From a virus, in the IMG/VR virus record IMGVR_UViG_3300032087_004763, positions 1 through 64,000 of that record: a stretch of 64,000 nt of DNA; one strand, given 5' to 3'. The position numbers and the translations under genes are program-made. Shown piece after piece: positions 6,303-54,168 of this stretch; the first letter of the stretch is position 1, and each line of letters starts with the position of its first letter. The notes beneath the pieces are model-generated. The model saw nothing but the letters and a program-made list of their open reading frames with translations. It made no database searches and was not told where the DNA came from.

Positions 6303-6353
6303 ACAATTGTGCCTGAGTTAAAATTTTTTAAAGGTCTATTATATATCAGTACG

Positions 6354-6770
6354 CTATTCTTGTACACTACTTTCTGTAGGTATTTTATCTTGAGGCGCAA
6401 CGGCCTTCTCGTAATATATTATGATTTCTTTTTGCTGGTTTATGTAGCGTCTAATATCAGCGATGTTTAATGCGAGGTTTTCATAGTCTCGCATACTTAA
6501 GACAACAATAGCGACTTCGCCGTATTGTTCCTTAAATTCTTTGATGAATTGTTCGAGGTTCTGTTCATTGATGACACGCACACGGGTGTCAGACAGTTGA
6601 ACTGGCTTTGGTCTTGACATGATAGGAACTTCGGTCTTCTCAACCTTAGTTACTACTTTGATCTCCGGCTCCGGCCTCGGGATCAGGCTGCAACCAGTTA
6701 GGTAGAGGAGCATCCCCGCTACCACCAGTATCTTCCATGATTCCGCGCCAAAGTTTTGCACTTGCGCCAT
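6354..6770 (-). CDS. lipoprotein, putative o-spanin (Rz1-like)
   Basis: Hydrophobic stretch, lipobox LTGC, Pro-rich segment; start embedded in the 3' end of the upstream coiled-coil gene. Confidence 0.7.
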   Translation of the reverse strand: MAQVQNFGAESWKILVVAGMLLYLTGCSLIPRPEPEIKVVTKVEKTEVPIMSRPKPVQLSDTRVRVINEQNLEQFIKEFKEQYGEVAIVVLSMRDYENLALNIADIRRYINQQKEIIIYYEKAVAPQDKIPTESSVQE

Positions 6771-19124: not shown

Positions 19125-19186
19125 AATATATTCTCCTCAATTTGTAGGTCCATTATACTATAATAGAGAGATTTGTACATTATACT

Positions 19187-21156: not shown

Positions 21157-22150
21157 CTATTCCTCTTCAATAGTGATTTTGTATTTTTGACCGTAAACAT
21201 CTTCGACTGAGATAGTTTTGGTCGTTGATAAAAGATAACCTTCCTCATGGAGGTCATACTTGATAGGACCCACGGATTTGATTGCATTCTTAAAGTCACC
21301 TTCAATCCACTGACGGATTGCGCTACGGCATATCGATGCTATACCATCACAATATTTCATTATACATTCTCCTTCAAAAACACGACGAACGCGTCGACAT
21401 AATCAATTGCAGTTGATCCGAGTTCTGGTACAAAAGCTGTGACCAGAACCCCTACAACAAATCCAATAATAAAATTCATTTTAAGCCCTCGCTAAAACTT
21501 CAGACGCATCGAAGACCGAGAAGAACCGTGGCTTTTTCTCACCAGTCTCTTCGTCTTCTTTGAACATAACAAGCTTAGCACAAGCCTTCAGACCTTTCAG
21601 TTTAGAACCAGGGATACCGAGTGACTTAACAGCCTGCTTGAAAGTTACAACAGAGTCAACGCCAGCCATCGCAAGCGTGGTTGCATTGACACCAGAATAC
21701 TCTTTTCCAGTTACATAGTTTTTCATAATTCTCTCCTCAATTCAATTTATGGTACCATTATACCATATAAGGAGAGAATGTACATACTTTTTTGGAAAGT
21801 TTTTTTGATAGGAATATCAATAACTTAGAGGATTATATTCCAGTTTTTGTCAGATCTAGAAATCCTTGACCACTTGCTACAATACATACCCAATTACGTG
21901 GCACATTCAACACGGTGAACGTCCAAGTCTGAGTGCTCGGATTCATCCATAACTGATGCATTAAATCTTCATCTAAGTGATTTACTGAATCTGATGCGAA
22001 TACGTTTGTTTCGCCATACCTTTCTTTCAATCCATTAAAAAAGTGCGTTGCCTCAAAGCACTGCATCGGAAGTGGTTGTTCTCTCATCTGAACTTCCGCA
22101 AAACTAGGAGCTGCCATCCATAACAACATGAGTATAATAAAATTTCTCAT
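21157..22150 (-). other. small early hypothetical ORFs (21157-21360, 21481-21726, 21833-22150)
   Basis: Co-oriented short ORFs with RBSs; 21833-22150 has a signal peptide. Confidence 0.6.
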
Positions 22151-22640: not shown

Positions 22641-22685
22641 AATGTTATTTATTATAACACGAAGCTAAACTTGTGTACAATTTTT

Positions 22686-29574: not shown

Positions 29575-29756
29575 AATCTTTTTCTGCGTTAGTCATTTCA
29601 CCGTACATACGGTCCAGGTCCAACATCATCTTGTGAACCACTGCATCCATTTCATTTTTCATAGTGTATCTCCTCATTTCTTAAGACCATTATACCAAGT
29701 CTGAAGCAAATGTACACACTTTTTTTCACAAAAGTTTCTATAAGATTATCAAACAC

Positions 29757-30384: not shown

Positions 30385-30456
30385 CTCCTCATCAATTTAT
30401 GGTACCATTATACCATAATATCCGAAGATGTACATACTTTTTTTCAAATAAAAATG

Positions 30457-30818: not shown

Positions 30819-31190
30819 CTAAAGCTCACTGATGAACTCCTTATATTGTTCAAGCGACATATATTCATCCGCTTCGCTAATGTTAGATGCTTTGATCTTA
30901 AACATCCACGCTGCTCCTTCTGGATCATTATTGATCAGCTCTGGTTCATCACTAAGACTCTCGTTAATCTCAGTGATCTCACCAGAGAGAGGAGTATAAA
31001 CATCTGATGCAGCCTTTACGGATTCTACAACACAGACATCGCCTTCGACTTCTACCTCAGATCCAACCTCTGGTAAGTCGATATAGACGATATCGCCTAA
31101 AGCTTCTTGGGCATAATCCGTGATACCGACTGTTGCAATATCACCATCAATGTCTAGCCATTCATGTTCTTTTGTGTATAGTCTACTCAC
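30819..31190 (-). CDS. gcvH: glycine cleavage system H protein (lipoyl carrier)
   Basis: YTKEHEW, VGITDYAQEALGDIVYIDLP, VESVKAASD (lipoyl-Lys), PELINNDP..W. Confidence 0.95.
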   Translation of the reverse strand: MSRLYTKEHEWLDIDGDIATVGITDYAQEALGDIVYIDLPEVGSEVEVEGDVCVVESVKAASDVYTPLSGEITEINESLSDEPELINNDPEGAAWMFKIKASNISEADEYMSLEQYKEFISEL

Positions 31191-31845
31191 TGATGAATTC
31201 CTCGATCATAGGAAATATCGGATGTAAAGCACAGGCACATTCTCTTGCAATCTGCATATGTTCTTTCTGTGTACCATGACCTGATCGCAACTGAATGTAA
31301 TGAATCCAAGAGCGAATAGTTCCATTCATATAAAGACGTGACTTAGTCAAACCTTCAGGCAGCAAAGCTCTTGCTTGTTCTTTTGCTACACCCATCTTAA
31401 TCGCATTACGATATTCTCTTGAACACATCCACTCGACACGCCTTTGCAATCTATCCCACTCATATCCGTCATCAGCTACGGTGATTGAGTTTTGCCGGTT
31501 CTTTGGATCCTGCTCTCGGCGTTCTCTTCTCTGAAACATGTCATCAAACTCGGCATCCGGATTTGCGTACCGTTGACTGAACTCTTGGAATGAGAATGAT
31601 CGATGCCTTAATATTTGACGAGCGATGTCACGAGTTGTTTCAATCTCAAGACACGCCGACGCCATTTCAAAGGGAGACCAATGTTCGTGTTTGATGAGAT
31701 ACCGTAGTAGTTTTTCATTTGTCTCAGTATTATTTTGATTAGAGGGATTTGATACTCTTGCGCAGTATGCAATGGTTTCACATAGATCCTCATGTTCCGA
31801 TTCATAATTCATTGCCTTACTATAACTGATTAAACGTGCTGTCAT
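31183..31845 (-). CDS. thyX: flavin-dependent thymidylate synthase
   Basis: HWSPFE, RDIARQILRHRSFSFQEFSQRY, EQARALLP, TQKEH. Confidence 0.95.
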   Translation of the reverse strand: MTARLISYSKAMNYESEHEDLCETIAYCARVSNPSNQNNTETNEKLLRYLIKHEHWSPFEMASACLEIETTRDIARQILRHRSFSFQEFSQRYANPDAEFDDMFQRRERREQDPKNRQNSITVADDGYEWDRLQRRVEWMCSREYRNAIKMGVAKEQARALLPEGLTKSRLYMNGTIRSWIHYIQLRSGHGTQKEHMQIARECACALHPIFPMIEEFISE

Positions 31846-33734: not shown

Positions 33735-34740
33735 TTACGATTGAGTATTTTCTTTTGATGAAGTCTGCGAAATCTGTTTCTGCCAGGATGGGTTCCCAGA
33801 AGTCAGCAGTGAGCGTATCCCGTTCTCTCGACTTTGGATCCATAAGCTCCCCAGAGCTCCGGTCGACACGACAATACCAACCGTTAGAAGGCTTAGCAAC
33901 GTAGCCCCCATCCAGAGCAACATCAAGCAGGCCGCTCCAACGCTGAACGCCACCTTCCCAAGAAACTGATATAGGTAATTTAGATTTTTCTTTAACAAAC
34001 CTTGATTTCTCCACATTGATCACAAAGTGATAACCCTTGACCTCTGTTCCTTGCTTGTCCTGTTGACGTCCAATAATCCAGATATTATCTGCTGAATAGT
34101 AAACGCCTGTACCACCTGATACAATATCTTTCGGGAACAGTCCTTGTTCTTTATATGTATGATTAACAGCAACACACGGAATATCTTTCATTGTAAGATA
34201 CGGTGTAGTCATTCTGAACAATGACTTCAGCTGCTTTGCGCGTGACATATCAGCCACGGACTTTTCATTCATTGCATCTTCTAATTCTTTCTTCGAAGCA
34301 ATATTACCGATAGAATCGATAATCACAATGACCTTATCCTTCTTGTCAATGTTCTCAAGCTGATTGATTAGATCGAACTTAAGCTCTTCAATGTTCATGA
34401 CAGGAGTGTGAAGGACTCGACCTGTGTCGATACCATACGTTGTAAAATATGATTGAGGTGAGCCAAACTCTGAATCATAAAAGAGTAAGACTGCATCTTC
34501 ATATTTCTCTAGGTATGCCGAAGCCATGATGAGTGCAAAAGAAGTTTTAAAATGTTTTGACGGACCTGCAAGGACGGTAAGTCCTGGTGTCAGCCCCCCA
34601 TCAATTGATCCAGACAGAGCCACATTAATCATCGGCACTGGCGTAGGGATCATGTCCTTTTCGGTAAAGAACTTTGAATCAGCAAGAACAGAAGACTCTT
34701 TGATCTTCGAATTCTTTTTTAGTTTATCCATTATAGACAT
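33709..34740 (-). CDS. uvsX: RecA-like recombinase UvsX
   Basis: AGPSKHFKT, YDSEFG, IDSIGN, DMSRAK. Confidence 0.96.
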   Translation of the reverse strand: MSIMDKLKKNSKIKESSVLADSKFFTEKDMIPTPVPMINVALSGSIDGGLTPGLTVLAGPSKHFKTSFALIMASAYLEKYEDAVLLFYDSEFGSPQSYFTTYGIDTGRVLHTPVMNIEELKFDLINQLENIDKKDKVIVIIDSIGNIASKKELEDAMNEKSVADMSRAKQLKSLFRMTTPYLTMKDIPCVAVNHTYKEQGLFPKDIVSGGTGVYYSADNIWIIGRQQDKQGTEVKGYHFVINVEKSRFVKEKSKLPISVSWEGGVQRWSGLLDVALDGGYVAKPSNGWYCRVDRSSGELMDPKSRERDTLTADFWEPILAETDFADFIKRKYSIVSEAINEGE

Positions 34741-34904
34741 TAATTATTCACCCTTGTAATTACGACCCGATCGCTTTGAGTGATTCTTTTATCTTCAATA
34801 CGTCGGTCGAGAGCTTCCTTAGAATACACGGTATAGTGTTTTCCATTTTCTTTAAATACGCAATACGCTGTATCTGACCTTAAAGGCACGTTTCTTTTAG
34901 GCAT
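34740..34904 (-). CDS. 54-aa hypothetical protein (not in the ORF track)
   Basis: MPKRNVPLRSDTAYCVFKENG...RVNN*; AGGAG RBS; TAATG overlap with uvsX. Confidence 0.55.
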   Translation of the reverse strand: MPKRNVPLRSDTAYCVFKENGKHYTVYSKEALDRRIEDKRITQSDRVVITRVNN

Positions 34905-34928
34905 AGACATCTCCTTGTGGTTTGTCTA

Positions 34929-35969
34929 TTATACCATAAATTCATCCAAGAGTACACCGTTATTTGTTGGTTCACCTTGACGTTGTTCCCATCCGGATAC
35001 CCAACCAGAATTATTCGTAATCGTCGATGGTACGTGGTCGAATGTATCATCAGACCGTGGTACATAATTCTGACCAAACCGAACAAAGTCACACATCACG
35101 TCCTCATTATCTCTTGGTGCTCCACCCATGCGTTCACATAGAATATCCATGAACTCGTCAGTGGTATAACCACTTGATAGTATCTTCATACACCGGACTG
35201 CGTTGTTACCAAAATATCCATGAGACATATCATCAACTAGATCCTTGTGATAGTCTCCTAGATCATACGAAAATGCAGCATAGACAAAGTTAAATCGTTT
35301 GTGACCTTGTTCTATATTGTACTCATTCAAATAATCTACGACTTCTTTGTGAGTCTTTTTCTGACCTGTGTGTAGCCAATCAATCAGACGATCAAGTAGA
35401 CTCGGTAACTCCTCGGTCAGATAATCGATGACACTGACTCCCTTACGTGGTGAAGGTGGTTGGTTACCAATCGACGTGAACGTAGCGATCTTATTTTCTT
35501 TACGGTACTTGAGATCTGCAATCATTTGATCGATAGAATCCATAATACCCCATCGATAAACACAATTGTTTCGATATCCGTGATCGCGTGTGAAAGAAGC
35601 GCCAGAGCCTGTGGCTCGGTGTGACATATAAGCAAACAACCAGGTCTTGAGATCCCATTTATCTGTGATGTAACTATCTACTAGATCAACATGTTTTTGA
35701 CCAAGAGAGATATTCTTCAGTTGATGGTGTCTCTTTGGTGTGTCGCTTCGGTACTTGAGGTCTTGCAATACGTTCGAGAATCCTGCTGCATTTCTTGTAT
35801 AGCAATCATATATATCAATGTACTGCATCAAATCGTCATTTATTTGTCGATTAGATTCTTCTCCGACGTAAGGAATTTTACCCCAGTTACAATTTAGCTG
35901 CAGCCATTTTGCTCTGGGGTAATAGTAGTTTGTCAGAATGTCAATTGCTTCTTCGTTGATCCACTTCAT
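34929..35969 (-). CDS. putative DNA base-hypermodification transferase (aGPT-Pplase / amino acid:DNA transferase-like)
   Basis: DLGDYH..FGNNAVRCM..PRDNEDVMCDFVRF resembles the xxEx2LC(E/D)FxK/R C-terminal motif of that superfamily; last gene of the modification operon. Confidence 0.55.
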   Translation of the reverse strand: MKWINEEAIDILTNYYYPRAKWLQLNCNWGKIPYVGEESNRQINDDLMQYIDIYDCYTRNAAGFSNVLQDLKYRSDTPKRHHQLKNISLGQKHVDLVDSYITDKWDLKTWLFAYMSHRATGSGASFTRDHGYRNNCVYRWGIMDSIDQMIADLKYRKENKIATFTSIGNQPPSPRKGVSVIDYLTEELPSLLDRLIDWLHTGQKKTHKEVVDYLNEYNIEQGHKRFNFVYAAFSYDLGDYHKDLVDDMSHGYFGNNAVRCMKILSSGYTTDEFMDILCERMGGAPRDNEDVMCDFVRFGQNYVPRSDDTFDHVPSTITNNSGWVSGWEQRQGEPTNNGVLLDEFMV

Positions 35970-36568
35970 GATACCAATACAATTTTACAAATGTGCTCTA
36001 GTCGTTCAATGTGTTCATATGCCCTCCACGGAGTTTCATCAATAGCAACGACTCCATGACCCTTAATACCTACAATATCAAACTGAATTTTCCCTTTCGA
36101 ATCTAATTTAAGATTCTCGTGACAGGCATTACCAAGTTCGTTACTTGTAGGTGGAACATCAGGCGTGCTCTCGGCAACTCGAGTATACCTACCTAGCTCA
36201 GGAAAATAGTTGACGAGGTGGTGAAGATCTAATCCACGATGCATTGCAGCAACCGTATATGTCGGATGTAGATGTACTACAACACGCGTCTCTATATTGT
36301 GCGGTAGAGTCTTTTGTAATCCGAAATGTAATGGCAACTCGCCGCTCGGATAAAGGTTCGTGCTTATCTCCGTATACTCTAGTGCTTTACCTGTCTTACT
36401 ATCAATCTTCTTCCACATATTTGGCTGCAGATCAGGTTTGCGAATACCGCTAGGTGTAATCCAAAAATGACCTCGGTCATGATGAGCGATACTAATATTA
36501 CCATCACGAACAGTGATGAAGTTTGCATCGTAGGCACGACGCATTAGGTCTGAACAAGTCTCTAACAT
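35966..36568 (-). CDS. class II aldolase/adducin-family metalloenzyme
   Basis: DGNIS, ITPSG, PSGELPLH, VVHLHP, GHGVV. Confidence 0.88.
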   Translation of the reverse strand: MLETCSDLMRRAYDANFITVRDGNISIAHHDRGHFWITPSGIRKPDLQPNMWKKIDSKTGKALEYTEISTNLYPSGELPLHFGLQKTLPHNIETRVVVHLHPTYTVAAMHRGLDLHHLVNYFPELGRYTRVAESTPDVPPTSNELGNACHENLKLDSKGKIQFDIVGIKGHGVVAIDETPWRAYEHIERLEHICKIVLVS

Positions 36569-37449
36569 TTCTTTTTCCAGTCTCTGTATGAGTCTATCTC
36601 GTCGTAGATAGATTCGTTAATTAACTCTGGTTCCTTTCCGACGTTCCAGAACAAAATATCTCTTCCTGAGTTCTTAGGTATATACTTCCACACCTTACCG
36701 TCATACGTGTCGATGTTTGGAAATGGTGGGAGGTTATCTGTTTTCTCTGACGCAGTGAATGCAAGTGGTTCTGATATTGGGGTTGCGATACCAAGCTCAC
36801 CCGCTTTCATATTCCGTGACACACAAACAGATGTAAACTTAGCGTTTGGCCAAGCAATCTGAAGCGCCCGTGTGAGCACGCCCGTGGACGTGGCAGTATA
36901 TACTTCGTTAGGCTCAGTTATAGTTGATGCAGTTTTCACAATACCTGCAGTCACCTTCTCATGCTTTAAACCAAGCGGAACGAAGAAAGCATTTGGCCTC
37001 TCGTCGGCCCACTTCTTTGCAAGTAGATTCAGATTCGGCATTGCAGCAATACGGTGGAATGAATAGTCACACCCTCGTTCAATACAGCAAGCCTGATGAT
37101 GTGATATCCTTCTTGACGAAGGCATGAACAGCATTACCTTCTTGTTATGTCGCTTTGCTACGTCAAGGAGCGAAACGCCAGCAAGACCAGTACGAGGCTG
37201 AACATAAACAATGGTATCGATACTATCAGGGAGCGAGGAAATGAGGCAGTCACCCCCGCGTACCTTAGACCCCACCAAGTAATCATCCCGGACAACCCTA
37301 ATGCCATCATGAGTGGTAACAACAGGTTCACCATAAGGGTCGGTCCAATCTCGAGCAAGACTAAAGTAGTAATCTCTTGCATCATCTGTTGTGTATAAGG
37401 GTCCGATGTCTTTGTTGATTCCGTCAATAACATGATTATTATGCGCCAA
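36562..37449 (-). CDS. PLP-dependent enzyme (fold type II-like)
   Basis: VVRDDYLVGSKVR (Schiff-base Lys), ATSTGVLTRALQ, YDGKVW, LFWNVG. Confidence 0.75.
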   Translation of the reverse strand: MAHNNHVIDGINKDIGPLYTTDDARDYYFSLARDWTDPYGEPVVTTHDGIRVVRDDYLVGSKVRGGDCLISSLPDSIDTIVYVQPRTGLAGVSLLDVAKRHNKKVMLFMPSSRRISHHQACCIERGCDYSFHRIAAMPNLNLLAKKWADERPNAFFVPLGLKHEKVTAGIVKTASTITEPNEVYTATSTGVLTRALQIAWPNAKFTSVCVSRNMKAGELGIATPISEPLAFTASEKTDNLPPFPNIDTYDGKVWKYIPKNSGRDILFWNVGKEPELINESIYDEIDSYRDWKKKC

Positions 37450-38401
37450 GTGGTGATACTCCCCAATCGTTTCTGCGATAGAACGGAGGAGCTATGTGAA
37501 AACTAGATCCAAATTCCATGTATGTCTTAGCGTATTTCTCGCCGTCCATAGTGTACCATTCTTTCGGAGGTTGAATAACTTTATCAGTACGTTTATATAG
37601 CTCATTGATAAACATGTCCGTGAGCTCACGCCTTTCCGTGAATGTACCATAGAATGGAGTACCTTTATAGAAGCCAGACTTTGGTATCTTGCGATCTTCA
37701 TATTCAACTGGAACAGGTGCACAATACCATACATCCTCTGCTAAATCATTTCCTTGTTCTACATACTTTGCCACAAGGTCTTCAATGCCAGGATTATCTC
37801 GTCGTAGTAAATGATGCCTAATGTCAATAGAACCAAAGCATAGACTGACTCGACCTTTCGGAGTAGTTCCTCTGAGGAAGGATCCAAGTCCTGCTTTGAT
37901 TGCTCCAAAGAGAGTTTTACCATCGTTACGATACACCCGATCAGTGCTGCTACTAAAAGCGATGGTATGAGAATCTCCCACCATGATATCGTCATAATTT
38001 AAATCCTGCTGTTTTAGTGATGAAATGTGTTTACACCTTTGAGATACCTGATCACACCATTGTTCAGTTATCCCTTCATAAGTTGTCTTTGCCCCAATCC
38101 TCTTCTTGAGCATTGCGCCATAGTCTGGCATGTCCCAGTCTAACGATACAACATGCGAGTGAGAACAGATTAGATTAATTCTATCGTAAATCTCTTTCGT
38201 AGCACCACCAAATAGATTCAGTGTACCACCAAAGTTTGCACCATGATCGATATAGACTATTCCTGATCTAAGAATATTCGGATCGCATTTGCTGTCAATT
38301 GATGCGTCTAACTGACGACACCACGTTTTAGCCCAACCTAAAACATGAGATTTTGGATTGACAGGAATATTTGATATAGGGTTAGTTACAACGCTCAACA
38401 T
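37439..38401 (-). CDS. protein with C-terminal SGNH/GDSx hydrolase-like domain
   Basis: MVGDSH, FGSIDIRHHL, SFHIAP. Confidence 0.6.
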   Translation of the reverse strand: MLSVVTNPISNIPVNPKSHVLGWAKTWCRQLDASIDSKCDPNILRSGIVYIDHGANFGGTLNLFGGATKEIYDRINLICSHSHVVSLDWDMPDYGAMLKKRIGAKTTYEGITEQWCDQVSQRCKHISSLKQQDLNYDDIMVGDSHTIAFSSSTDRVYRNDGKTLFGAIKAGLGSFLRGTTPKGRVSLCFGSIDIRHHLLRRDNPGIEDLVAKYVEQGNDLAEDVWYCAPVPVEYEDRKIPKSGFYKGTPFYGTFTERRELTDMFINELYKRTDKVIQPPKEWYTMDGEKYAKTYMEFGSSFHIAPPFYRRNDWGVSPLGA

Positions 38402-38759
38402 AATCTTTCAACTCGCTTAGCATCTGTCTCTCATACTCTGAATCATTGAGTTGCCGGTTCAGAGGAGAAGGATGCGGCATTTTAAAACTATTAAATCCAA
38501 GTCTCTTCAATGTGTTATACACCTGAGATCCAAGTGCTACTATTATATCACGATCTGATAGCATTTGTACAATCATTTTTTTATCAATAGATTTATACTT
38601 GAAGTCCCATTCAGGATCATCTGATAGATTCATGAATGAGAAGATCGGAAGGTTAATCTGTTCAGCCCAGGAGTATAACCTACGAAGTGCGGGACCTTGT
38701 TTGGTCCCGCTTACTTTCGAAGGATTTAATCCTACTATGACAATGTTTTTTCGCTCCAT
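38382..38759 (-). CDS. uracil-DNA-glycosylase-fold protein
   Basis: IVGLNPS ... VALG ... PHPSPLN. Confidence 0.7.
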   Translation of the reverse strand: MERKNIVIVGLNPSKVSGTKQGPALRRLYSWAEQINLPIFSFMNLSDDPEWDFKYKSIDKKMIVQMLSDRDIIVALGSQVYNTLKRLGFNSFKMPHPSPLNRQLNDSEYERQMLSELKDYVERCN

Positions 38760-38861
38760 GCGTGGTTCACTTCTAATTGTTTCACTCTTTCAGTTAGTTG
38801 GTCTATCTGCATCACTAAGTCCTCAATTGATGTTTGGGATTGTTTTTGTTTTTCTCCTTTT

Positions 38862-39317
38862 TTAAAGATCGTGTCTAATACCGACGAATTCGAACTGTAT
38901 ACTAGCTTCATTGAACATCTCCTGAGTTTTACGCCATGAGTCTTGCCACGAGTCTGGTATCTCAATGTCTTTCATTACAACTCTTCTGACACCGACTTGA
39001 ATAATACCCTTTGCGCATTCTGAACATACCGGTAATCCCGTCACATACATCGTTGCACCATCAAGAGATACACCGTTGTATGTTGCATTGAATATAACAT
39101 TCATTTCGGCGTGGACTACCAGCTCATATTTCCTCTGACGATTGTAGTATCTGCTGTGAGAATCATCAATCCCACGAGGAAATCCGTTGTAGCCTTGGGC
39201 CAGAACCTGGCCTTTGGCTCCGATCGCCACGGCACCAACTTTCCGTGACGGGTCTTTCGACCAGCTAGCTACTTCTTCTGCTAGCTTTAAAAATCTTTGA
39301 TCCCACTTATACGACAA
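38862..39317 (-). CDS. cd: dCMP deaminase
   Basis: SKDPSRKVGA, GYNGFPRG, VHAEMN, PVCSEC; probable TTG start at 39317. Confidence 0.93.
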   Translation of the reverse strand: MSYKWDQRFLKLAEEVASWSKDPSRKVGAVAIGAKGQVLAQGYNGFPRGIDDSHSRYYNRQRKYELVVHAEMNVIFNATYNGVSLDGATMYVTGLPVCSECAKGIIQVGVRRVVMKDIEIPDSWQDSWRKTQEMFNEASIQFEFVGIRHDL

Positions 39318-39984
39318 GGTGGAAATGCCTCTCATAAACATGGAGGTTTTGTACCTGCCATATAATATTACCTGGACGAAGATCCTGACAAGTTGATGCA
39401 TTGACATCAGTTGTAAGTCTATCTTGCACAAATCGTTGCCAAGCATAATCGTTCTTATAGCCAAAGACTACGTCATTAGAACGCATTTGTACTACGGCAT
39501 GGAGATAATCGTCTCGGATGTAATAAGTGACGGAGTTTGTGCAGATAAAATCATTCTTACCATTTTCTGAGTATTCGATCCAGATGGATGGCCGAGTGTA
39601 GATCATAGAAGCTCTTCGGCCATCAGAACTATTTATCAATTCTTGTAACACCATCTCGTACTGTCCATGATATAATGGATCAAAAATAAGATGACCATAG
39701 TTAGAGTTGATATTACCCCACTCGTCTGAACAATATTGCCATGCTTGTGGAGGTTCACGTGTACCACCATAGATGTCATGGATATTTGTAGATCCGCTCA
39801 GGTACCACTCAATCTCTGCATTCACATACTCTTGATTCACTTCACCAAAGATAGCAGGTTCGTCAGCTTGAAATGATGCACCGATCATCTCAATTGTTTT
39901 CTGACCGGTCCTATCAATAGTAAACTCTTCTGCAGCCAACTTATCAATAAAGTCGGCACGGATATCATTGACCTTCAGCATCAC
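39307..39984 (-). CDS. dCMP hydroxymethylase-like thymidylate synthase homolog (T4 gp42-like)
   Basis: INSNYG, DFICTN (catalytic Cys), MRSNDVVFGYKNDYAWQ, LHVYERHF. Confidence 0.88.
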   Translation of the reverse strand: MMLKVNDIRADFIDKLAAEEFTIDRTGQKTIEMIGASFQADEPAIFGEVNQEYVNAEIEWYLSGSTNIHDIYGGTREPPQAWQYCSDEWGNINSNYGHLIFDPLYHGQYEMVLQELINSSDGRRASMIYTRPSIWIEYSENGKNDFICTNSVTYYIRDDYLHAVVQMRSNDVVFGYKNDYAWQRFVQDRLTTDVNASTCQDLRPGNIIWQVQNLHVYERHFHLVV

Positions 39985-40333
39985 GGATCTCTTTCACAGT
40001 TGATGGTTTTTTACGATTGAGGAAGTCACGATCTGGATCTTGGCCGTCGATCTTACCACGAGAGTAGGCGACAGCAAACGAGGAATAGTTGATCAGATCT
40101 TTGAGTGAATCCTCGATTGATTCAAAGTTTGGTTTGTAGCTTGGATCATTCTCCATAGCTTCAAGTACTGACCACAGACGGATTGTCTTAGTATTGATCA
40201 GTTCCATAATTGACAAAATGCCACGCGGATAGTAATCTGCTTGGCGGATACGAGAGTTTTCATTCTGATAGTCTCGAGACTTTTTGTCTTGGATCTCTGC
40301 ACATTCTTGCAGGACTTTAATTGATTCACGCAT
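39965..40333 (-). CDS. nucleotide-modification-associated domain protein (Nmad1/DUF1599-like)
   Basis: KKSRDY ... ESIEDSLKDLINYSSF; start at 40333. Confidence 0.7.
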   Translation of the reverse strand: MRESIKVLQECAEIQDKKSRDYQNENSRIRQADYYPRGILSIMELINTKTIRLWSVLEAMENDPSYKPNFESIEDSLKDLINYSSFAVAYSRGKIDGQDPDRDFLNRKKPSTVKEIRDAEGQ

Positions 40334-40337
40334 ATAA

Positions 40338-40808
40338 TTATCCAATTTGATTACAGAAAGGAAGTTCATTATTAACACATTCAGCAAGATACTGGTGTGT
40401 TAATCGTTTTTCGGTATTTTGATGAGTTGTCACTTCTTCAGTGATTTCATTACCTGTTAAAGGACATTTGAATTTAATAATTTCTCTAGGACAGCAAACT
40501 GCATATACATCGATCTTAGATTCATCAATTAAATCCATTACGTCCATAATACGTTTATTAGTCATATCTCCATAAGGACCACGACCTTGTTGATATGTAT
40601 TAATACGACCAGCAAATCCTAATTTACCGCCGGCTTTGCCAATTTTCATAAGTTTATTATCAACGTACATAAAATAAACAATATCACCAAGAGCAATAAT
40701 GTCTTTACGACGTAGATTTTCTTTACGGACAAAAGGCATTTGATCTCCGTCGATTTTAAAATATCCTAGATACTGTGATTTTTCACTAATCATTTGTTCA
40801 ATGTTCAT
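40338..40808 (-). CDS. GIY-YIG nuclease, endonuclease II (DenA)-like
   Basis: IVYFMYVDNKLMKIGKA...RINTY ... EKRL ... PFCN; AT-rich; own early-type promoter. Confidence 0.6.
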   Translation of the reverse strand: MNIEQMISEKSQYLGYFKIDGDQMPFVRKENLRRKDIIALGDIVYFMYVDNKLMKIGKAGGKLGFAGRINTYQQGRGPYGDMTNKRIMDVMDLIDESKIDVYAVCCPREIIKFKCPLTGNEITEEVTTHQNTEKRLTHQYLAECVNNELPFCNQIG

Positions 40809-40869
40809 AATATGTTCTCCTCAATCTTTGTACCATTATACCAAGATTTCTGGAAATGTACATCTTTTT

Positions 40870-41814
40870 TTACATATTTTTGTAAACAAATTCAAGTGCA
40901 CGATCTGCTTCTTTATCAAGTGGGCGGTTAGAGTACCAGTTACCGGTCTCGGCATCAAGCTGCTTACACATCTGTGAGATCTCTGCAGCAGTGATAGGGT
41001 ATTGCTTTCTTACGGCGTTTGCAGCCACAGAAACCATAATTCGATACATTGTATGATACCAGCCAGTACCAGTAATCGAACGATATTCCGCTTCAAGGTG
41101 TTTCGGAAAGAACGGACAGTCATGATATGAGTTCCAACTATAGTTAGTATTGTCTAGCTTAGACTTACGATGTTCAATGATTTGCTTTTGAACTTCTTCA
41201 GGCAGCCGATCAAAGAAGTTGTTTCCATCACGTTTCTCAGTATACGGAAACTCTTTGATCAGGGCATCAGGGTCAATAGGTGATATGCCACCACCATTAA
41301 AAATAAAATTGTCAGCACCAGCGTACCGACCAGGGACATAATACATTCTTGAAAGATCGCGTGTTTGTCGATCTGCGATGTGATCCAATTTTGTGTTAAG
41401 AGCATACCAGAAGGCTTTGATTTCATCTTTTCCCACTCTTCGCTCAAGTGGAAAGACAAGCCTAAACTTAGGACTATCCGGTGTGCTGCTTGCAGTACTA
41501 TAGCAAAGATAGTACCAATCACCAACCAACTCATCAAGCTCACTCTTTAGATCTCCTTTAAATTCGTGGTCATCAACATCGACTGCACACCAACGTCCCC
41601 AGTCGACAACATTATCATTTGCTCTTGTTTTATTTATAACATAGGTCGCCGGCGAAATGAGTTGTGCATCTTTCTTCGACGCACGATCCACCTTCGCCAG
41701 GTCATATAGTAGCTTTTCAAATTCGGCGAAGGATTTGAAATCCATCCGCTTGTGCGTTTTGTTATCAAAGATACTTTTGAATAAAGTGAGGGAAGTACCC
41801 GTGGTTTCCGTCAT
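40870..41814 (-). CDS. archaeo-eukaryotic primase (prim-pol)-like protein
   Basis: WCAVDVDD, YSTASS..KFRLVFPL, DRQTRDLSRMYYVP, helical C-terminal domain; start MTETTG at 41814. Confidence 0.7.
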   Translation of the reverse strand: MTETTGTSLTLFKSIFDNKTHKRMDFKSFAEFEKLLYDLAKVDRASKKDAQLISPATYVINKTRANDNVVDWGRWCAVDVDDHEFKGDLKSELDELVGDWYYLCYSTASSTPDSPKFRLVFPLERRVGKDEIKAFWYALNTKLDHIADRQTRDLSRMYYVPGRYAGADNFIFNGGGISPIDPDALIKEFPYTEKRDGNNFFDRLPEEVQKQIIEHRKSKLDNTNYSWNSYHDCPFFPKHLEAEYRSITGTGWYHTMYRIMVSVAANAVRKQYPITAAEISQMCKQLDAETGNWYSNRPLDKEADRALEFVYKNM

Positions 41815-42199
41815 GGCTCGGTGCCTTCCATTCGAGTGGTTTGATGAGGTCTGGTAATCCGAGTGGATTTGGTCGTTCGGGCTTGACGCCAACTTTTTTC
41901 GCCATGTTTGCATTATGTACTTCATCCCAAGCTTTATGAGAGTTGATACCGAAGGCATCCAATGTGCCTAGGGCAACGACGATAATATCGATCAGACCGT
42001 CAACCACCTCTTCTGGGTCTTGGTCGTGATAGATCGCCTTCAATGTTTCTTTATATTCTTCGTTGATAAAATCCATACGAAAGTTAAGAAACGATTTCAA
42101 TGCTTCTTTATCGCCTTCTTCAATTTTAGTTCTTACCCATTCATGTACGCCATACTTTGCATGCATGTCATGAATATCTTTTACCATGTCATTTGACAT
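41765..42199 (-). CDS. MazG/PRA-PH-like dNTP pyrophosphohydrolase
   Basis: FINEEYKE..EEVVDGLID..WDEVHNANMAK..PDLIKP. Confidence 0.8.
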   Translation of the reverse strand: MSNDMVKDIHDMHAKYGVHEWVRTKIEEGDKEALKSFLNFRMDFINEEYKETLKAIYHDQDPEEVVDGLIDIIVVALGTLDAFGINSHKAWDEVHNANMAKKVGVKPERPNPLGLPDLIKPLEWKAPSHDGNHGYFPHFIQKYL

Positions 42200-42254
42200 T
42201 TACTTTCTCCGTTTAGATGGATATTATACATTGATTCTCTGGGAATGTACACAG

Positions 42255-50571: not shown

Positions 50572-50630
50572 GTACTCCGTGTGTGATATGTTTCATATTA
50601 TACACTATATCTGATCGCATGTACAATACT

Positions 50631-53106: not shown

Positions 53107-54168
53107 TTAAACTATATCTAAAGCCTGTGCTTCATTCATGAGGTCTGACATCTCGGATTTGATCCTTGCTTTGTCCAAGTCTGTTTCAACATTATCTATA
53201 TACGTCGATAGCAATTCTGTAGTTTCTTCTACATTAATTCCATCGTCATCGACGTTCTCACCAAGAAACTCCTGGAAGTTCTCGGCAATCTTGAGTTCAT
53301 AGATATCTTGAGCTTGGATTCTATCGAGAAACCTCTCAAACATAAATTGATCGTTCTTTGTTTGTACAACAACTTTGACAAACTTACGAGAACAATCTGG
53401 CGTATCAATACTATTATAATCTATATGGCCGTCATTGTACAATATTTTTTTGAATAATATGTGCTTATTTCTTACGGGCGTGAGCTCACGGGTCTCAGTG
53501 TCAAGCACGTGGAAGTACTTAGGATCACCTGCATCAGACCACGTCAGTTCCATCTGATTACCGAGATAGTGAATATTATCTCTCTGAGATTTTGTATGGA
53601 AGTGACCAGACAACACCATTTCAAATCGTTTAAATATTGCAGCATCCATTCCGGTCGTTGACTTAATACCACGCATCATATCGAATCCATTGAGTTCCAG
53701 ATGTGCACAGATGATCGGTGCAGTCGTTTCCTGTAACCACTTGATTGTCGAATGATAGTTCTCATTATTGATCCACGGTACAAGGCCAATACTCAATCCA
53801 TCGTATTCATAGACTGATGGTTCCATGACAATCGAGATGTTGTTCATGTAATGACCAAGTAGTTCTTTCAATGTGCAGATATTGTTTGTATTCTTATAGT
53901 AGACGTCATGGTTACCCGGGATGATATCCATCTGCATGTTGTTGTCACGCAACACGTCTAAAAATATTCTCCTGTTATGGTTAATAGCTTTCACTGAGAT
54001 TTGTTTACGGTTGTCGTAATAGTCTCCGAGGTGAAGTACTTGCTTAATATCGTTCTCGATACAATATGGAAAGAAGGTGTCCGTATAGAATCGAGTCTGG
54101 TTTTCTAGAAAGATATCCGATGAGTTACGAACATCGCAGTGTGTGTCGTTTAAAATAGCAATACGCAT
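53107..54168 (-). CDS. 47: recombination exonuclease nuclease subunit gp47 (Mre11-like)
   Basis: NDTH, LGDYYD, GNHD, SGHFH. Confidence 0.95.
   Translation of the reverse strand: MRIAILNDTHCDVRNSSDIFLENQTRFYTDTFFPYCIENDIKQVLHLGDYYDNRKQISVKAINHNRRIFLDVLRDNNMQMDIIPGNHDVYYKNTNNICTLKELLGHYMNNISIVMEPSVYEYDGLSIGLVPWINNENYHSTIKWLQETTAPIICAHLELNGFDMMRGIKSTTGMDAAIFKRFEMVLSGHFHTKSQRDNIHYLGNQMELTWSDAGDPKYFHVLDTETRELTPVRNKHILFKKILYNDGHIDYNSIDTPDCSRKFVKVVVQTKNDQFMFERFLDRIQAQDIYELKIAENFQEFLGENVDDDGINVEETTELLSTYIDNVETDLDKARIKSEMSDLMNEAQALDIV

What the first reader, a model, noticed from the sequence alone, without database searches (positions are those of the whole stretch)
34929..40808. Candidate new cytosine hypermodification operon
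Seen: one early promoter (40835-40861) precedes tightly coupled genes for an EndoII-like GIY-YIG nuclease, Nmad1, a TS homolog, dCMP deaminase, a UDG-fold protein, an SGNH-like protein, a PLP enzyme, a class II aldolase and an aGPT-Pplase-like protein. The TS homolog reads RSNDVVFGYKND, with Asp at the specificity position as in T4 gp42 (dCMP) rather than the Asn of dUMP enzymes; dTMP is supplied separately by ThyX. Established: amino acid:DNA transferases plus PLP decarboxylases are characterised for thymidine hypermodification on 5hmdU (ViI, M6) and need a 5hmdU DNA kinase, whereas T4 hmC is glucosylated. Here that chemistry is paired with a cytosine-type enzyme, an aldolase and an SGNH protein, and I see neither a glycosyltransferase nor a kinase in the window. 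Inference: an uncharacterised amino- or sugar-derived substituent on 5-hmC (or 5-hydroxy-C).
Basis: partly seen in the sequence, partly recalled or inferred. Interest (0 to 1): 0.85.

Follow-up and report, generated by a model that had tools for sequence, protein, structure and literature searches.

The report
Kinase-free cytosine hypermodification cassette in phage
An uncultured marine T4-like phage makes T4's base 5-hydroxymethylcytosine and also carries distant relatives of the enzymes that attach amino acids to thymine in other phages, so its DNA probably bears a chemically undescribed decorated cytosine; no experiment has tested this.

Summary
On the minus strand, 40808-34929, nine tightly coupled genes follow a real phage promoter motif.

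What each gene is:
- The TS homolog is a T4-type dCMP hydroxymethylase (E 1.4e-70 to PDB 1B5D). All four diagnostic residues are of the hmC type, not the 5-hydroxy-C type.
- The orphan 346-aa protein has no Pfam hit. Its model matches amino acid:DNA transferases (BFVD E 1e-11; best PDB hit PaMx11 gp46). Its E289/C293 align with their catalytic Glu/Cys.
- The 295-aa protein is a homolog of the M6 gp52 PLP decarboxylase.
- The 320-aa protein has an SGNH fold.

These three genes were together in 49 of 49 informative related IMG/VR loci, and next to a D-type gp42 homolog in 34 of 35. The 320-aa protein is naturally fused to the transferase domain in seven representative proteins.

The 142-kb record shows no 5-hmU-type kinase, no T4 glucosyltransferase and no gp1 kinase. 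The record is 84% complete.

The aldolase, the UDG-fold protein and the EndoII-like nuclease are lineage-specific accessories, not core.

Best reading (0.6): a post-replicative, kinase-free, amino-acid-derived modification of 5hmC. The product is unknown.

This scan found the same cassette before on other genomes (e1-5836654, e1-5836670, e1-5375399). I found no paper describing it.

The parts
42223..42251 (-). Promoter-motif copy (TGTACA-N17-TATAAT) upstream of the MazG-like gene
   Evidence: one of 12 copies in the window, all on the minus strand, against 0.08 expected
41765..42199 (-). MazG/PRA-PH-type NTP pyrophosphatase; candidate dCTPase that keeps dCTP out of phage DNA (an analog of T4 gp56 in function)
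   Evidence: Pfam PRA-PH 1.2e-9; phrog_671 6e-22. Syntenic in nearly all related loci. PRA-PH co-occurs with TS and deaminase on cytosine-modified contigs (PMC8670742). The dCTP specificity is inferred.
40835..40862 (-). Promoter motif TGTACA-N16-TATAAT with TG extended -10, in the 61-nt gap before the first gene
40338..40808 (-). EndoII (T4 DenA)-like GIY-YIG nuclease; lineage-specific accessory
   Evidence: phrog_1111 4.8e-6. T4 DenA is phrog_1111 at 2.3e-65. BLASTP to DenA E 0.001, 25% identity over the GIY-YIG core. Absent from all 80 related loci. No tblastn hit in cultured phages.
39965..40333 (-). Nmad1/DUF1599 protein (likely start at the ATG at 40333, not the TTG at 40387)
   Evidence: Pfam DUF1599 E 0.035 here; 13 of 15 orthologs match, best 3.5e-7. 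phrog_18404 3.6e-12, a PHROG that also covers the MazG-like protein. Present in 25 related loci.
39307..39984 (-). T4 gp42-type dCMP hydroxymethylase (5hm-dCMP synthase)
   Evidence: phmmer E 1.4e-70 to T4 dCMP hydroxymethylase, PDB 1B49/1B5D; next-best TS hit 7e-7. 52-55% identity to T-even-type gp42. It keeps the catalytic Cys (DFICTN), the ThyA L143 position is Asp, D169 is Asp, and N177 is Asp.
38862..39341 (-). dCMP deaminase (start near 39341/39335; the listed TTG at 39464 is too far upstream)
   Evidence: Pfam dCMP_cyt_deam_1 9.4e-22; phrog_174 9e-45. Its position varies among related loci.
38382..38759 (-). Small UDG-fold protein (GLNPS and HPSPLN motifs); accessory
   Evidence: Pfam UDG 1e-6, 29.3 bits against a cut-off of 24.3. 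Present in 10 of 80 related loci, next to the deaminase gene (directly before p320 in 8 of them).
38542..38571 (-). Second promoter-motif copy, inside the UDG-fold gene and upstream of the trio
37439..38401 (-). p320: N-terminal alpha/beta domain with a Gly-rich loop, plus an SGNH/GDSL-fold domain (about 135-315). Core component; proposed activating or acyl-transfer partner of the transferase.
   Evidence: phrog_13881 8.6e-92; no Pfam hit. AF2 pLDDT 87.9. VIA Z 10-11 to about 45 SGNH hydrolases and acyltransferases. Invariant G142-D-S144-H and H302; the block III Asn is missing. Fused to the transferase domain in 7 representatives. 587 homolog clusters.
36562..37449 (-). p295: fold-type II PLP enzyme, homolog of M6 gp52 (PLP decarboxylase acting on amino-acid-modified DNA). 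Core component.
   Evidence: phrog_7093 1.8e-32 across the whole profile; M6 gp52 is phrog_7093 at 2.2e-159. hhalign to M6 gp52: probability 93%, E 2.7e-7, 207 columns, with GSK62VRG aligned on SKIRG. A divergent ortholog carries Pfam PALP.
35966..36568 (-). Class II aldolase/adducin-family protein; motifs corresponding to the FucA metal and acid-base ligands are present. Rare accessory inserted inside the trio.
   Evidence: Pfam Aldolase_II 4.1e-25. All NCBIfam hits lie far below their cut-offs. Present in 5 of 80 related loci. A 67%-identical copy lies between nrdA and nrdB on a 338-kb contig. It takes the place of p295 in L049. SHMT occupies the same slot in L048 and L050.
34929..35969 (-). 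p346: all-helical HhH-glycosylase-like protein, a distant clade of the aGPT-Pplase/amino acid:DNA transferase superfamily. Candidate group transferase acting on 5hmC in DNA. Core component.
   Evidence: No Pfam, PHROG or NCBIfam hit. AF2 pLDDT 86.6. Foldseek BFVD top hit is an 'Amino acid:DNA transferase domain' protein, E 1.2e-11, TM 0.79. VIA top PDB hit is 8z2m, PaMx11 gp46/PUGT, Z 8.6 over 203 residues. E289/C293 align to the ET..C247 catalytic motif and are at least 90% conserved in a family at 21-44% identity.
31183..31845 (-). ThyX flavin-dependent thymidylate synthase (separate dTMP supply)
   Evidence: Pfam Thy1 1.4e-38

Best explanation
The cluster makes and then further modifies 5-hydroxymethylcytosine in phage DNA.

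Shown by homology:
- A T4-type dCMP hydroxymethylase converts dCMP to 5hm-dCMP.
- A MazG-type pyrophosphatase just upstream probably removes dCTP.
- dCMP deaminase and ThyX supply dTMP.
- An EndoII-like nuclease could attack cytosine-containing host DNA.

Inferred: after replication a conserved trio works on 5hmC in DNA.
1. The 346-aa HhH-fold protein flips out the base. Cys293 attacks C6, helped by Glu289. The C5 hydroxymethyl oxygen leaves, giving an exocyclic methylene that is captured by an amino acid or amine. This is the mechanism shown for PaMx11 gp46 and M6 gp51 on phosphorylated 5hmU.
2. The 295-aa PLP enzyme then decarboxylates or otherwise trims the appended amino acid, as M6 gp52 and ViI gp226 do.
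3. No DNA kinase is present. The 320-aa SGNH-fold protein, with invariant Ser144 and His302, stands where the kinase stands in thymidine systems, and elsewhere it is even fused to the transferase domain. It most likely activates the hydroxyl by another route, such as O-acylation, or delivers the donor.

In this lineage a class II aldolase-family enzyme has been inserted inside the trio. It is probably a supply or alternative tailoring step.

The final product is an amino-acid-derived 5-substituted cytosine of unknown structure.
For: gp42 identity and residues:
- E 1.4e-70 to T4 gp42, with Cys, L143D, D169 and N177D all of the hmC type.
- All 45 related homologs carry the same signature. It is read against the diagnostic residues in PMC13326640.

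p346:
- Confident model.
- Best viral structural matches are AADT-domain proteins, E 1e-11.
- Best PDB match is the only solved AADT, 8z2m, Z 8.6, followed by HhH glycosylases.
- The only hhalign segment puts E289-x3-C293 on E243-x3-C247. Cys247 is the catalytic residue, and the ET..C motif is shared by 8 AADTs.
- E289 and C293 are at least 90% conserved across a family at 21-44% identity.

p295:
- Same PHROG as M6 gp52.
- hhalign probability 93%, with the PLP lysine aligned.

p320:
- SGNH fold, Z 10-11.
- Rosetta-stone fusions with the transferase domain in 7 representatives.

Linkage:
- The trio is complete in 49 of 49 loci with room for it, and a gp42 homolog is present in 34 of 35. Gene order is sometimes inverted.
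- The same set recurs on unrelated small contigs, with the fusion next to PLP, a D-type TS, MazG or dUTPase_2, and a deaminase.

Absences in the 142-kb record:
- No PF18723, PF18724, T4 alpha- or beta-GT or gp1 homolog.
- No spare P-loop protein.

SHMT, which interconverts serine, glycine and CH2-THF, sits inside the trio in two lineages.
Against: - Nothing chemical has been measured: no product, no substrate, no activity.
- p346 fails the Pfam ADDT model (no hit at E 10). Only 1 of 63 family members touches it, at E 1e-3.
- Profile-profile similarity to AADTs is not significant overall (E 0.03, probability 1.5%).
- Z 8.6 is modest for a helical protein.
- p320 lacks the SGNH oxyanion Asn and has no Pfam hit. 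Catalytically dead SGNH folds that bind nucleic acid exist; Oskar OSK is among its hits. Its role is a guess.
- No dNMP kinase able to phosphorylate 5hm-dCMP was found. The record is only 84% complete.
- The genome carries about ten glycosyltransferases elsewhere, and these could act on 5hmC.
- dCMP deaminase could in principle turn 5hm-dCMP into 5hm-dUMP, which would make thymine the target.
Confidence: 0.6

Rival explanations
1. The phage stops at 5hmC, or glycosylates it with transferases encoded elsewhere in the genome. On this reading the trio is not a DNA-modification pathway. It is a repair or anti-defence set: an HhH glycosylase-like protein and a UDG-fold protein excise damaged or deaminated bases, and the PLP and SGNH enzymes are unrelated auxiliary metabolic genes.
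For: After 8z2m, the next PDB matches of p346 are genuine DNA glycosylases (AGOG, Ogg, AlkA, EndoIII; Z 5-7.7). A UDG-fold gene sits beside the trio in some lineages. UDP-glucose dehydrogenase and epimerase genes follow p346 in 13-19 related loci.
Against: The trio is strictly linked (49 of 49), and p320 is fused to the HhH domain. That is hard to explain for unrelated functions. p295 belongs to the one PLP family known to act on modified DNA. p346 keeps the transferase Glu/Cys dyad. No T4-type DNA glucosyltransferase was found. Another follow-up links the distant glycan cluster to virion proteins.
Confidence: 0.15
2. The target is thymine-type, not cytosine. dCMP deaminase converts some 5hm-dCMP to 5hm-dUMP, 5hmU enters DNA, and the trio performs an M6/ViI-like thymidine hypermodification.
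For: All characterised AADT and PLP pairs act on 5hmU (PMC8989533). A deaminase gene is usually nearby.
Against: The 5-hmU DNA kinase that defines those pathways is absent. ThyX supplies normal dTMP. Every linked TS homolog is D-type (dCMP-specific) in 45 of 45 cases, and no dUMP hydroxymethylase is present. T4 has the same gp42 plus cd pair without any 5hmU in its DNA (established T4 biology). p346 is a separate clade from the T-acting AADTs.
Confidence: 0.1
3. The trio works before replication on free nucleotides (5hm-dCMP or 5hm-dCTP), or on RNA or tRNA, rather than on DNA.
For: The 5hmC carbamoyltransferase of PMC8670742 also accepts 5hm-dCTP. DUF2419 queuine-salvage enzymes, which act on free nucleosides, are among the structural neighbours (Z 7.2-7.6).
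Against: The nearest structural relative binds double-stranded DNA and flips the base. Characterised homologs of p295 and p346 act on DNA polymers. A bulky dNTP would also have to be accepted by the polymerase.
Confidence: 0.1

Closest known systems
Thymidine hypermodification of phages M6, PaMx11, ViI and PhiW-14 (5-HMUDK kinase, aGPT-Pplase2/AADT, PLP decarboxylase; PMC8989533, PMC11472151)
   Same: A TS-family hydroxymethylase makes the hydroxymethyl pyrimidine. An HhH-fold transferase with a Glu-x3-Cys dyad is present. A PLP enzyme of the M6 gp52 family (phrog_7093) is present. The genes are clustered, and fusions occur between the activating enzyme and the helical domain.
   Different: The hydroxymethylase is dCMP-specific (D-type), so the base is C rather than T. 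There is no P-loop 5-hmU DNA kinase. An SGNH-fold protein occupies the kinase's place. The transferase is a separate clade that the Pfam ADDT model does not detect. The host phages are marine T4-like myoviruses.
T4 hmC pathway (gp42, gp56, gp1, cd, alpha/beta-glucosyltransferases, EndoII)
   Same: gp42 ortholog at 52% identity with every key residue kept. dCMP deaminase. An all-alpha NTP pyrophosphatase next to the DNA polymerase gene. An EndoII-like nuclease. The same genome neighbourhood, between gp43 and uvsX.
   Different: No alpha- or beta-glucosyltransferase and no gp1 homolog were detected. ThyX replaces Td. The trio stands where T-even phages would decorate hmC with sugar.
5hoC-arabinosyl pathway of RB69 and DLP3 (PMC13326640) and 5-carbamoyloxymethylcytosine (PMC8670742)
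   Same: Both are cytosine hypermodifications that start from a TS homolog co-located with MazG/PRA-PH and a deaminase.
   Different: The TS homolog here keeps Asp at ThyA position 169, whereas 5hoC synthases have Asn. The cluster contains no glycosyltransferase and no carbamoyltransferase.
Aeromonas phage 44RR2.8t ORF233c (795 aa) and homologs in phages 31, 25, Aes012 and phiAS4
   Same: Its N-terminal half is homologous to p320 (HMM E 9e-58, GDSH kept). It is fused to a helical C-terminal half with a weak HMUDK_hel match. The same phage has a D-type gp42 homolog.
   Different: No p295 homolog was found, and the p346-family HMMs do not hit its C-terminal half. Its function is uncharacterised. 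It is useful as a cultured handle, not as an explanation.

Membership tests
T4-type dCMP hydroxymethylase (5hm-dCMP synthase) | Close homology to T4 gp42 rather than to thymidylate synthases | tested here: met
   E 1.4e-70 to PDB 1B49/1B5D against 7e-7 for the best TS; 52% identity
T4-type dCMP hydroxymethylase (5hm-dCMP synthase) | Catalytic Cys; Asp at ThyA N177 (dCMP specificity); acidic residue at ThyA L143 (admits water) | tested here: met
   DFIC-TN and YKND in the alignment to T4 gp42; criteria taken from PMC13326640
T4-type dCMP hydroxymethylase (5hm-dCMP synthase) | Asp kept at ThyA D169 (Asn marks 5hoC synthases) | tested here: met
   RSND here and in 45 of 45 related homologs; criterion
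T4-type dCMP hydroxymethylase (5hm-dCMP synthase) | Produces 5hm-dCMP from dCMP and CH2-THF | not testable with these tools
   needs an enzyme assay
Amino acid:DNA transferase (aGPT-Pplase2, Pfam ADDT PF18724) | Match to the family HMM | tested here: not met
   No Pfam hit at E 10. No hit in a genome-wide PF18724 search at E 10. Only 1 of 63 family representatives hits, at E 1e-3.
Amino acid:DNA transferase (aGPT-Pplase2, Pfam ADDT PF18724) | Fold of the solved member PaMx11 gp46/PUGT | tested here: met
   8z2m is the top hit of 48,161 chains: Z 8.6, rmsd 4.0, 203 residues aligned. BFVD AADT-domain proteins: E 1e-11, TM 0.79. The Z value is modest.
Amino acid:DNA transferase (aGPT-Pplase2, Pfam ADDT PF18724) | Catalytic Cys with a Glu four residues upstream | tested here: met
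   E289-x3-C293 aligns to E243-x3-C247. Both residues are at least 90% conserved family-wide. The alignment itself is weak (E 0.03).
Amino acid:DNA transferase (aGPT-Pplase2, Pfam ADDT PF18724) | Partnered with a P-loop 5-hmU DNA kinase | tested here: not met
   No spare Walker A protein. No PF18723 match. None in the 80 related loci. The record is 84% complete.
M6 gp52 / ViI gp226-type PLP decarboxylase (phrog_7093) | Family HMM match and an aligned PLP lysine | tested here: met
   phrog_7093 1.8e-32. M6 gp52 itself scores 2.2e-159. hhalign probability 93%, E 2.7e-7, with SK62VRG on SKIRG.
M6 gp52 / ViI gp226-type PLP decarboxylase (phrog_7093) | Decarboxylates an amino acid attached to DNA | not testable with these tools
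   needs an assay
SGNH/GDSL hydrolase-acyltransferase superfamily | Fold | tested here: met
   Residues 135-315: Z 10-11 to about 45 SGNH chains. Foldseek probability 0.99-1.0.
SGNH/GDSL hydrolase-acyltransferase superfamily | Block I GDS serine and block V histidine | tested here: inconclusive
   G142-D-S144-H145 and H302 are invariant. I did not verify by superposition that H302 is the block V histidine.
SGNH/GDSL hydrolase-acyltransferase superfamily | Block III GxND asparagine (oxyanion hole) | tested here: not met
   The matching segment reads G190-S-I-D193, followed by invariant R195-H-H.
Class II aldolase/adducin family | Pfam PF00596 match, with the metal and acid-base residues | tested here: met
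   Pfam 4.1e-25. PSGE, HLH and GHG motifs read from the sequence. No NCBIfam equivalog cut-off is reached, so the substrate is unknown.
T4 EndoII (DenA) GIY-YIG nucleases | Family HMM match and the GIY-YIG core | tested here: inconclusive
   phrog_1111 4.8e-6 here against 2.3e-65 for DenA. BLASTP E 0.001 over 67 residues. No hit to the PDB sequence set.
Nmad1 (DUF1599) | Pfam PF07659 match | tested here: met
   E 0.035 here, but 13 of 15 orthologs match, best 3.5e-7

The most novel reading that the evidence does not exclude
Marine T4-like phages, and some unrelated phages, replace cytosine with an amino-acid- or amine-bearing 5-substituted cytosine. They would make it by a new, kinase-free route. 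An SGNH-fold enzyme activates 5hmC in DNA by O-acylation rather than phosphorylation, and a new clade of Cys-dependent HhH transferases swaps the leaving group for an amino acid. A PLP enzyme then trims that amino acid; in some lineages, such as this one, a class II aldolase-family enzyme would do it instead. That would be both a new natural DNA base and a new activation chemistry for DNA hypermodification, abundant in the ocean.
Probability: 0.3. Interest if true: 0.9.

Novelty: new variant of a known kind. Interest (0 to 1): 0.74.

Why it matters
All known amino-acid-type DNA hypermodifications sit on thymine and need a DNA kinase. Known decorations of 5hmC or 5hoC are sugars or a carbamoyl group. 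This cassette would extend the amino-acid chemistry to cytosine without a kinase.

It is not a rarity. I found 193 confirmed IMG/VR contigs and hundreds of protein clusters in marine metagenomes.

If real, the consequences are practical:
- It would affect how marine viral DNA is sequenced and amplified, and how it resists restriction and CRISPR.
- It would add a base and two enzyme families (the p346 clade and p320) to the toolbox for site-selective labelling of 5hmC.

The question is directly testable. The genes are short, T4gt 5hmC DNA is a ready substrate, and cultured Aeromonas phages carry a related fusion protein.

Tried and rejected
- Megablast of the cluster and tblastn of p346 and the 156-aa protein against 50,697 phage records found nothing. 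I found no cultured phage with p346.
- Pfam, NCBIfam and PHROGs gave nothing for p346, even at E 10.
- The p346 profile against PDB sequences gave nothing. Foldseek against PDB gave only weak AGOG hits; VIA-align was needed to find 8z2m.
- hhalign of p346 against single M6 proteins, and against an 8-member AADT alignment, was not significant. I use only the motif register from it.
- Pfam on the fused p320-transferase proteins gave nothing useful.
- The protein atlas search on the p320 N-terminal domain gave no usable hit.
- The p295 profile against PDB sequences gave nothing.
- Searches of the phage record for T4 gp1, PF18723, PF18724, PF09198 and PF11440 were empty. The control genomes held no true positives and the record is 84% complete, so these absences are suggestive only.
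- Rejected, the 5-hydroxycytosine reading: Asp, not Asn, stands at the diagnostic position.
- Rejected, the aldolase as evidence for a sugar-derived substituent: it is rare among carriers, and its closest relatives sit between nrdA and nrdB on another virus-like contig.
- The 362-aa gene upstream (40870-41958) is an AEP primase-like protein (phrog_9765 8.6e-47). It is not part of the pathway.
- Iyer et al. 2013, which defined these families, is not held in the library. I could not check whether it foresaw this context.

Full report
**Setting.** The window is the first 64 kb of a 142,381-bp IMG/VR virus record that CheckV rates 84% complete. Gene content is that of a marine T4-like myovirus. 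It has a family-B DNA polymerase, a gp44-like clamp loader, a gp46-like SbcC, UvsX, a gp41-like helicase, ThyX, Hsp20 and a peroxiredoxin. Earlier notes on the same genome also call it a marine T4-like phage.

**The observation.** All nine ORFs are present on the minus strand between 40808 and 34929.
- Junctions are overlaps of 4-30 nt or a 4-nt gap. The exception is 102 nt between the deaminase and the UDG-fold gene.
- The claimed promoter (40862-40835, TGTACA-N16-TATAAT with an extended -10 TG) belongs to a real motif class. TGTACA-N15-18-TATAAT occurs 12 times in the window, always on the coding strand, against 0.08 expected.
- A second copy lies inside the UDG-fold gene (38571-38542), just upstream of the 320-aa gene, and a third precedes the MazG-like gene (42251-42223). 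The cluster may therefore be more than one transcription unit.
- The generic sigma-70 scan on its own is not above background: 30 sites against 23.9 +/- 4.6.

**The hydroxymethylase.** The 225-aa TS homolog matches T4 dCMP hydroxymethylase at E 1.4e-70 (PDB 1B49/1B5D). The best thymidylate synthase scores 7e-7. It is 52-55% identical to gp42 of T-even-type phages.

Lee et al. 2026 (PMC13326640) give the diagnostic positions in E. coli ThyA numbering:
- N177D selects dCMP.
- L143D/E admits water.
- D169N marks the flavin-dependent 5-hydroxy-dCMP synthases of RB69 and DLP3.

Here the segment reads DFIC-TN ... MRSNDVVFGYKND. That gives the catalytic Cys, Asp at 143, Asp at 169 and Asp at 177. All 45 homologs in related loci have the same D/D/D signature. 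So do a very divergent copy on contig L095 and the copy in Aeromonas phage 44RR2.8t.

**The 346-aa protein (p346).**
- No Pfam, NCBIfam or PHROG model hits it, even at E 10. tblastn finds nothing in 50,697 phage records.
- It has 160 close homolog clusters in marine metagenomes. In a library clustered at 50% identity it has 142 representatives.
- An AlphaFold2 model from 39 sequences is confident (pLDDT 86.6, pTM 0.86) and all-helical.
- Against predicted viral structures, the top hit is an 'Amino acid:DNA transferase domain-containing protein' (E 1.2e-11, TM 0.79). It is followed by two unnamed uncultured-phage proteins (E 6e-11 and 3e-10). Further down come aGPT-Pplase1 proteins and 5-hmdU DNA kinase helical-domain proteins.
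- Against 48,161 PDB representatives, the single best chain is 8z2m, PaMx11 gp46/PUGT, the only solved amino acid:DNA transferase (Z 8.6, 203 residues). Next come HhH DNA glycosylases and DUF2419. The authors of that structure reported the same neighbours.
- Sequence-level profile comparison with eight AADTs is not significant (E 0.03). Its only aligned segment, however, places E289-D-V-M-C293 on E243-T-V-L-C247 of M6 gp51.
- Cys247 is the catalytic nucleophile of PaMx11 gp46, and ET..C is shared by all eight AADTs. The neighbouring Glu is also required for activity.
- E289, C293 and D294 are at least 90% conserved across 63 family members that are only 21-44% identical to the query.
- Only one of those 63 touches Pfam ADDT, at E 1e-3.

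I conclude that p346 is a distant sister clade within the aGPT-Pplase/AADT superfamily. It works like these enzymes but is not a member of the Pfam family.

**The 295-aa protein (p295).** It hits phrog_7093 at 1.8e-32 over the whole profile. M6 gp52, the PLP decarboxylase shown to act on glycinyl-thymidine in DNA, is the type member of that PHROG at 2.2e-159. A 20-sequence profile aligns to M6 gp52 with 93% probability (E 2.7e-7, 207 columns). The alignment starts at the PLP-lysine motif, GSK62VRG on SKIRG. A divergent ortholog on L095 carries Pfam PALP, which is fold type II.

**The 320-aa protein (p320).**
- It has no Pfam hit. It matches phrog_13881 at 8.6e-92, and also the N-terminal half of a 795-residue PHROG.
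- It has 587 homolog clusters.
- The model is confident (pLDDT 87.9). Residues 135-315 superpose on about 45 SGNH/GDSL esterases and acyltransferases at Z 10-11.
- G142-D-S144-H and H302 are invariant. The block III Asn is replaced, and invariant R195-H-H follows.
- The N-terminal 130 residues form an alpha/beta domain with an invariant Gly-rich loop. I could not test that fold separately.

**Linkage.**
- A scan of IMG/VR found 193 confirmed loci, and I analysed the best 80.
- In 49 of 49 loci with at least 2.2 kb upstream of the p346 homolog, p320 and p295 homologs are both present. Gene order is sometimes reversed.
- In 34 of 35 loci with at least 4.5 kb upstream, a gp42 homolog is present.
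- The block lies between polB/MazG/an AEP primase-like gene and uvsX.
- Seven representative proteins of 639-790 residues are natural fusions of p320 (N-terminal) with the p346 domain.
- Two such fusions lie on small, unrelated contigs next to a p295 homolog, a D-type TS homolog, MazG or dUTPase_2, and a dCMP deaminase.
- A podovirus-like contig with a T7-type RNA polymerase also carries the trio.

This is strong comparative evidence that gp42, p320, p295 and p346 form one functional module.

**What is not core.**
- The aldolase is in 5 of 80 loci, the UDG-fold gene in 10 and the EndoII-like gene in none. The deaminase changes position.
- Other lineages carry different extras: UDP-glucose dehydrogenase (19 loci), an epimerase (13), dGTP_diPhyd_N (13), a small nucleotidyltransferase (11), phosphomannomutase and a cupin.
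- Two lineages carry serine hydroxymethyltransferase between p295 and p346. That is exactly the slot the aldolase holds here.
- The aldolase has more than 6,400 homologs. A 67%-identical copy sits between nrdA and nrdB on a 338-kb virus-like contig.
- In one 6.1-kb contig (L049) the aldolase lies between p320 and p346, and no p295 is present anywhere on the contig.

So the aldolase is a travelling viral gene recruited into the cassette. Whether it supplies a precursor or replaces the PLP step is open.

**What is absent.**
- The only Walker A proteins in the 142-kb record are the helicase, the clamp loader, the SbcC-like protein and a few ORFs I did not annotate. None of them is a small kinase-like protein.
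- There is no match to T4 gp1, HMUDK_hel, ADDT, or T4 beta- or alpha-glucosyltransferase.
- The record is incomplete and the controls held no true positives, so these are suggestive absences only.
Another follow-up tied that cluster to virion proteins.

**Mechanism.**
- Shown by homology: dCMP goes to 5hm-dCMP through gp42, and dTMP supply runs through cd and ThyX.
- Inferred from family context: MazG acts as a dCTPase, and the EndoII-like nuclease acts against cytosine DNA.
- Inferred from fold, catalytic residues and linkage: p346 flips 5hmC out of DNA. Cys293 adds to C6 and the C5 oxygen leaves. A nucleophile, an amino acid or amine, then adds to the exocyclic methylene. p295 then decarboxylates or trims it.
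- From my own knowledge, not tested here: DNA cytosine-5 methyltransferases can exchange the hydroxyl of 5hmC for thiols through the same Cys-C6 adduct without prior phosphorylation. A kinase-free route on cytosine is therefore chemically plausible.
- p320 mirrors the architecture of 5-HMUDK, which is a catalytic domain plus an aGPT-Pplase-type helical domain. I therefore propose that it activates the hydroxyl (O-acylation fits an SGNH Ser-His enzyme) or delivers the donor. This is the weakest step.

**Known or new.**
- Full-text searches for aGPT-Pplase, cytosine hypermodification, DNA transferase with 5hmC, and dCMP hydroxymethylase with marine myoviruses found no description of this cassette.
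- Known 5hmC and 5hoC derivatives are glucosyl, arabinosyl and other glycans, and carbamoyl.
- The scan itself has met this cassette on other genomes, with the same reading. My evidence was gathered independently here.
- Specific to this window are the embedded aldolase, the UDG-fold gene and the EndoII-like nuclease.

**A cultured handle.** p320 has homologs at 29-31% identity in 43 phage records. Most are T4-like Aeromonas phages: 44RR2.8t, 31, 25, Aes012 and phiAS4.
- In 44RR2.8t the homolog is the N-terminal half of the 795-aa ORF233c (p320-family HMM 9e-58, GDSH kept).
- The C-terminal half of ORF233c weakly matches HMUDK_hel (E 0.0036, below the cut-off).
- That phage has a D-type gp42 homolog but no p295 homolog.

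**Verdict.** I classify it as a new variant of a known kind: hypermodification machinery of the thymidine type, re-based on 5hmC, without the kinase and with a new SGNH-fold partner. The product and the role of p320 are unknown until nucleoside chemistry is done.

Noticed in passing
window, 12 sites: 2122-2150, 6338-6366, 19152-19179, 21757-21784, 22651-22679, 29689-29716, 30407-30434, 38542-38571, 40835-40862, 42223-42251, 50597-50625, 53413-53441: A phage promoter class, TGTACA-N15-18-TATAAT, often with a TG extended -10. All 12 copies are on the minus (coding) strand, against 0.08 expected by chance.
   Followed up: partly
L094:6001-6633 (338-kb JGI contig): A 67%-identical class II aldolase sits between the ribonucleotide reductase large and small subunit genes. 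A glutaredoxin gene follows, and a SAM synthetase gene is nearby. This viral aldolase family seems tied to nucleotide metabolism; its substrate is unknown.
   Followed up: partly
L049:467-3120: The order is p320, aldolase, p346, with no PLP (p295) homolog anywhere on the 6.1-kb contig. The aldolase-family enzyme may substitute for the PLP step in that lineage. This is a single case.
   Followed up: partly
L050:8657-9802 and L048:1271-2473: A full-length serine hydroxymethyltransferase (Pfam SHMT 2e-150) is inserted between the PLP gene and the transferase gene. It would supply both CH2-THF for gp42 and glycine or serine.
   Followed up: partly
L097:6001-8388 (Aeromonas phage 44RR2.8t ORF233c) and L097:4408-5931: A cultured T4-like phage has a 795-aa fusion of a p320-like domain with a helical domain that weakly matches HMUDK_hel. 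It lies next to a phage-encoded sodium:solute symporter.
   Followed up: partly
window 40870-41958: An AEP primase-like protein (phrog_9765 8.6e-47; DVDD and SRMYYVPG motifs) is conserved between the MazG-like gene and the modification genes in most related loci. Its likely start is the internal ATG near 41814.
   Followed up: partly
L003:10024-11842 and 18 other loci: UDP-glucose dehydrogenase (19 related loci in all), often together with an NAD-dependent epimerase/dehydratase (13 loci), directly follows the transferase gene. Phosphomannomutase and a small nucleotidyltransferase precede gp42 in some loci. These lineages may add a sugar-acid step, or the genes may serve virion glycans.
   Followed up: no
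L005:7796-10437: The trio also occurs on a 41.6-kb contig with a T7-type single-subunit RNA polymerase. The cassette therefore moves between phage types.
   Followed up: no
window 34740-34910: A small 56-aa ORF directly downstream of the cluster has its own TGGTATAAT extended -10 and a strong RBS. It is conserved in about a dozen of the related loci. It has no family match.
   Followed up: no
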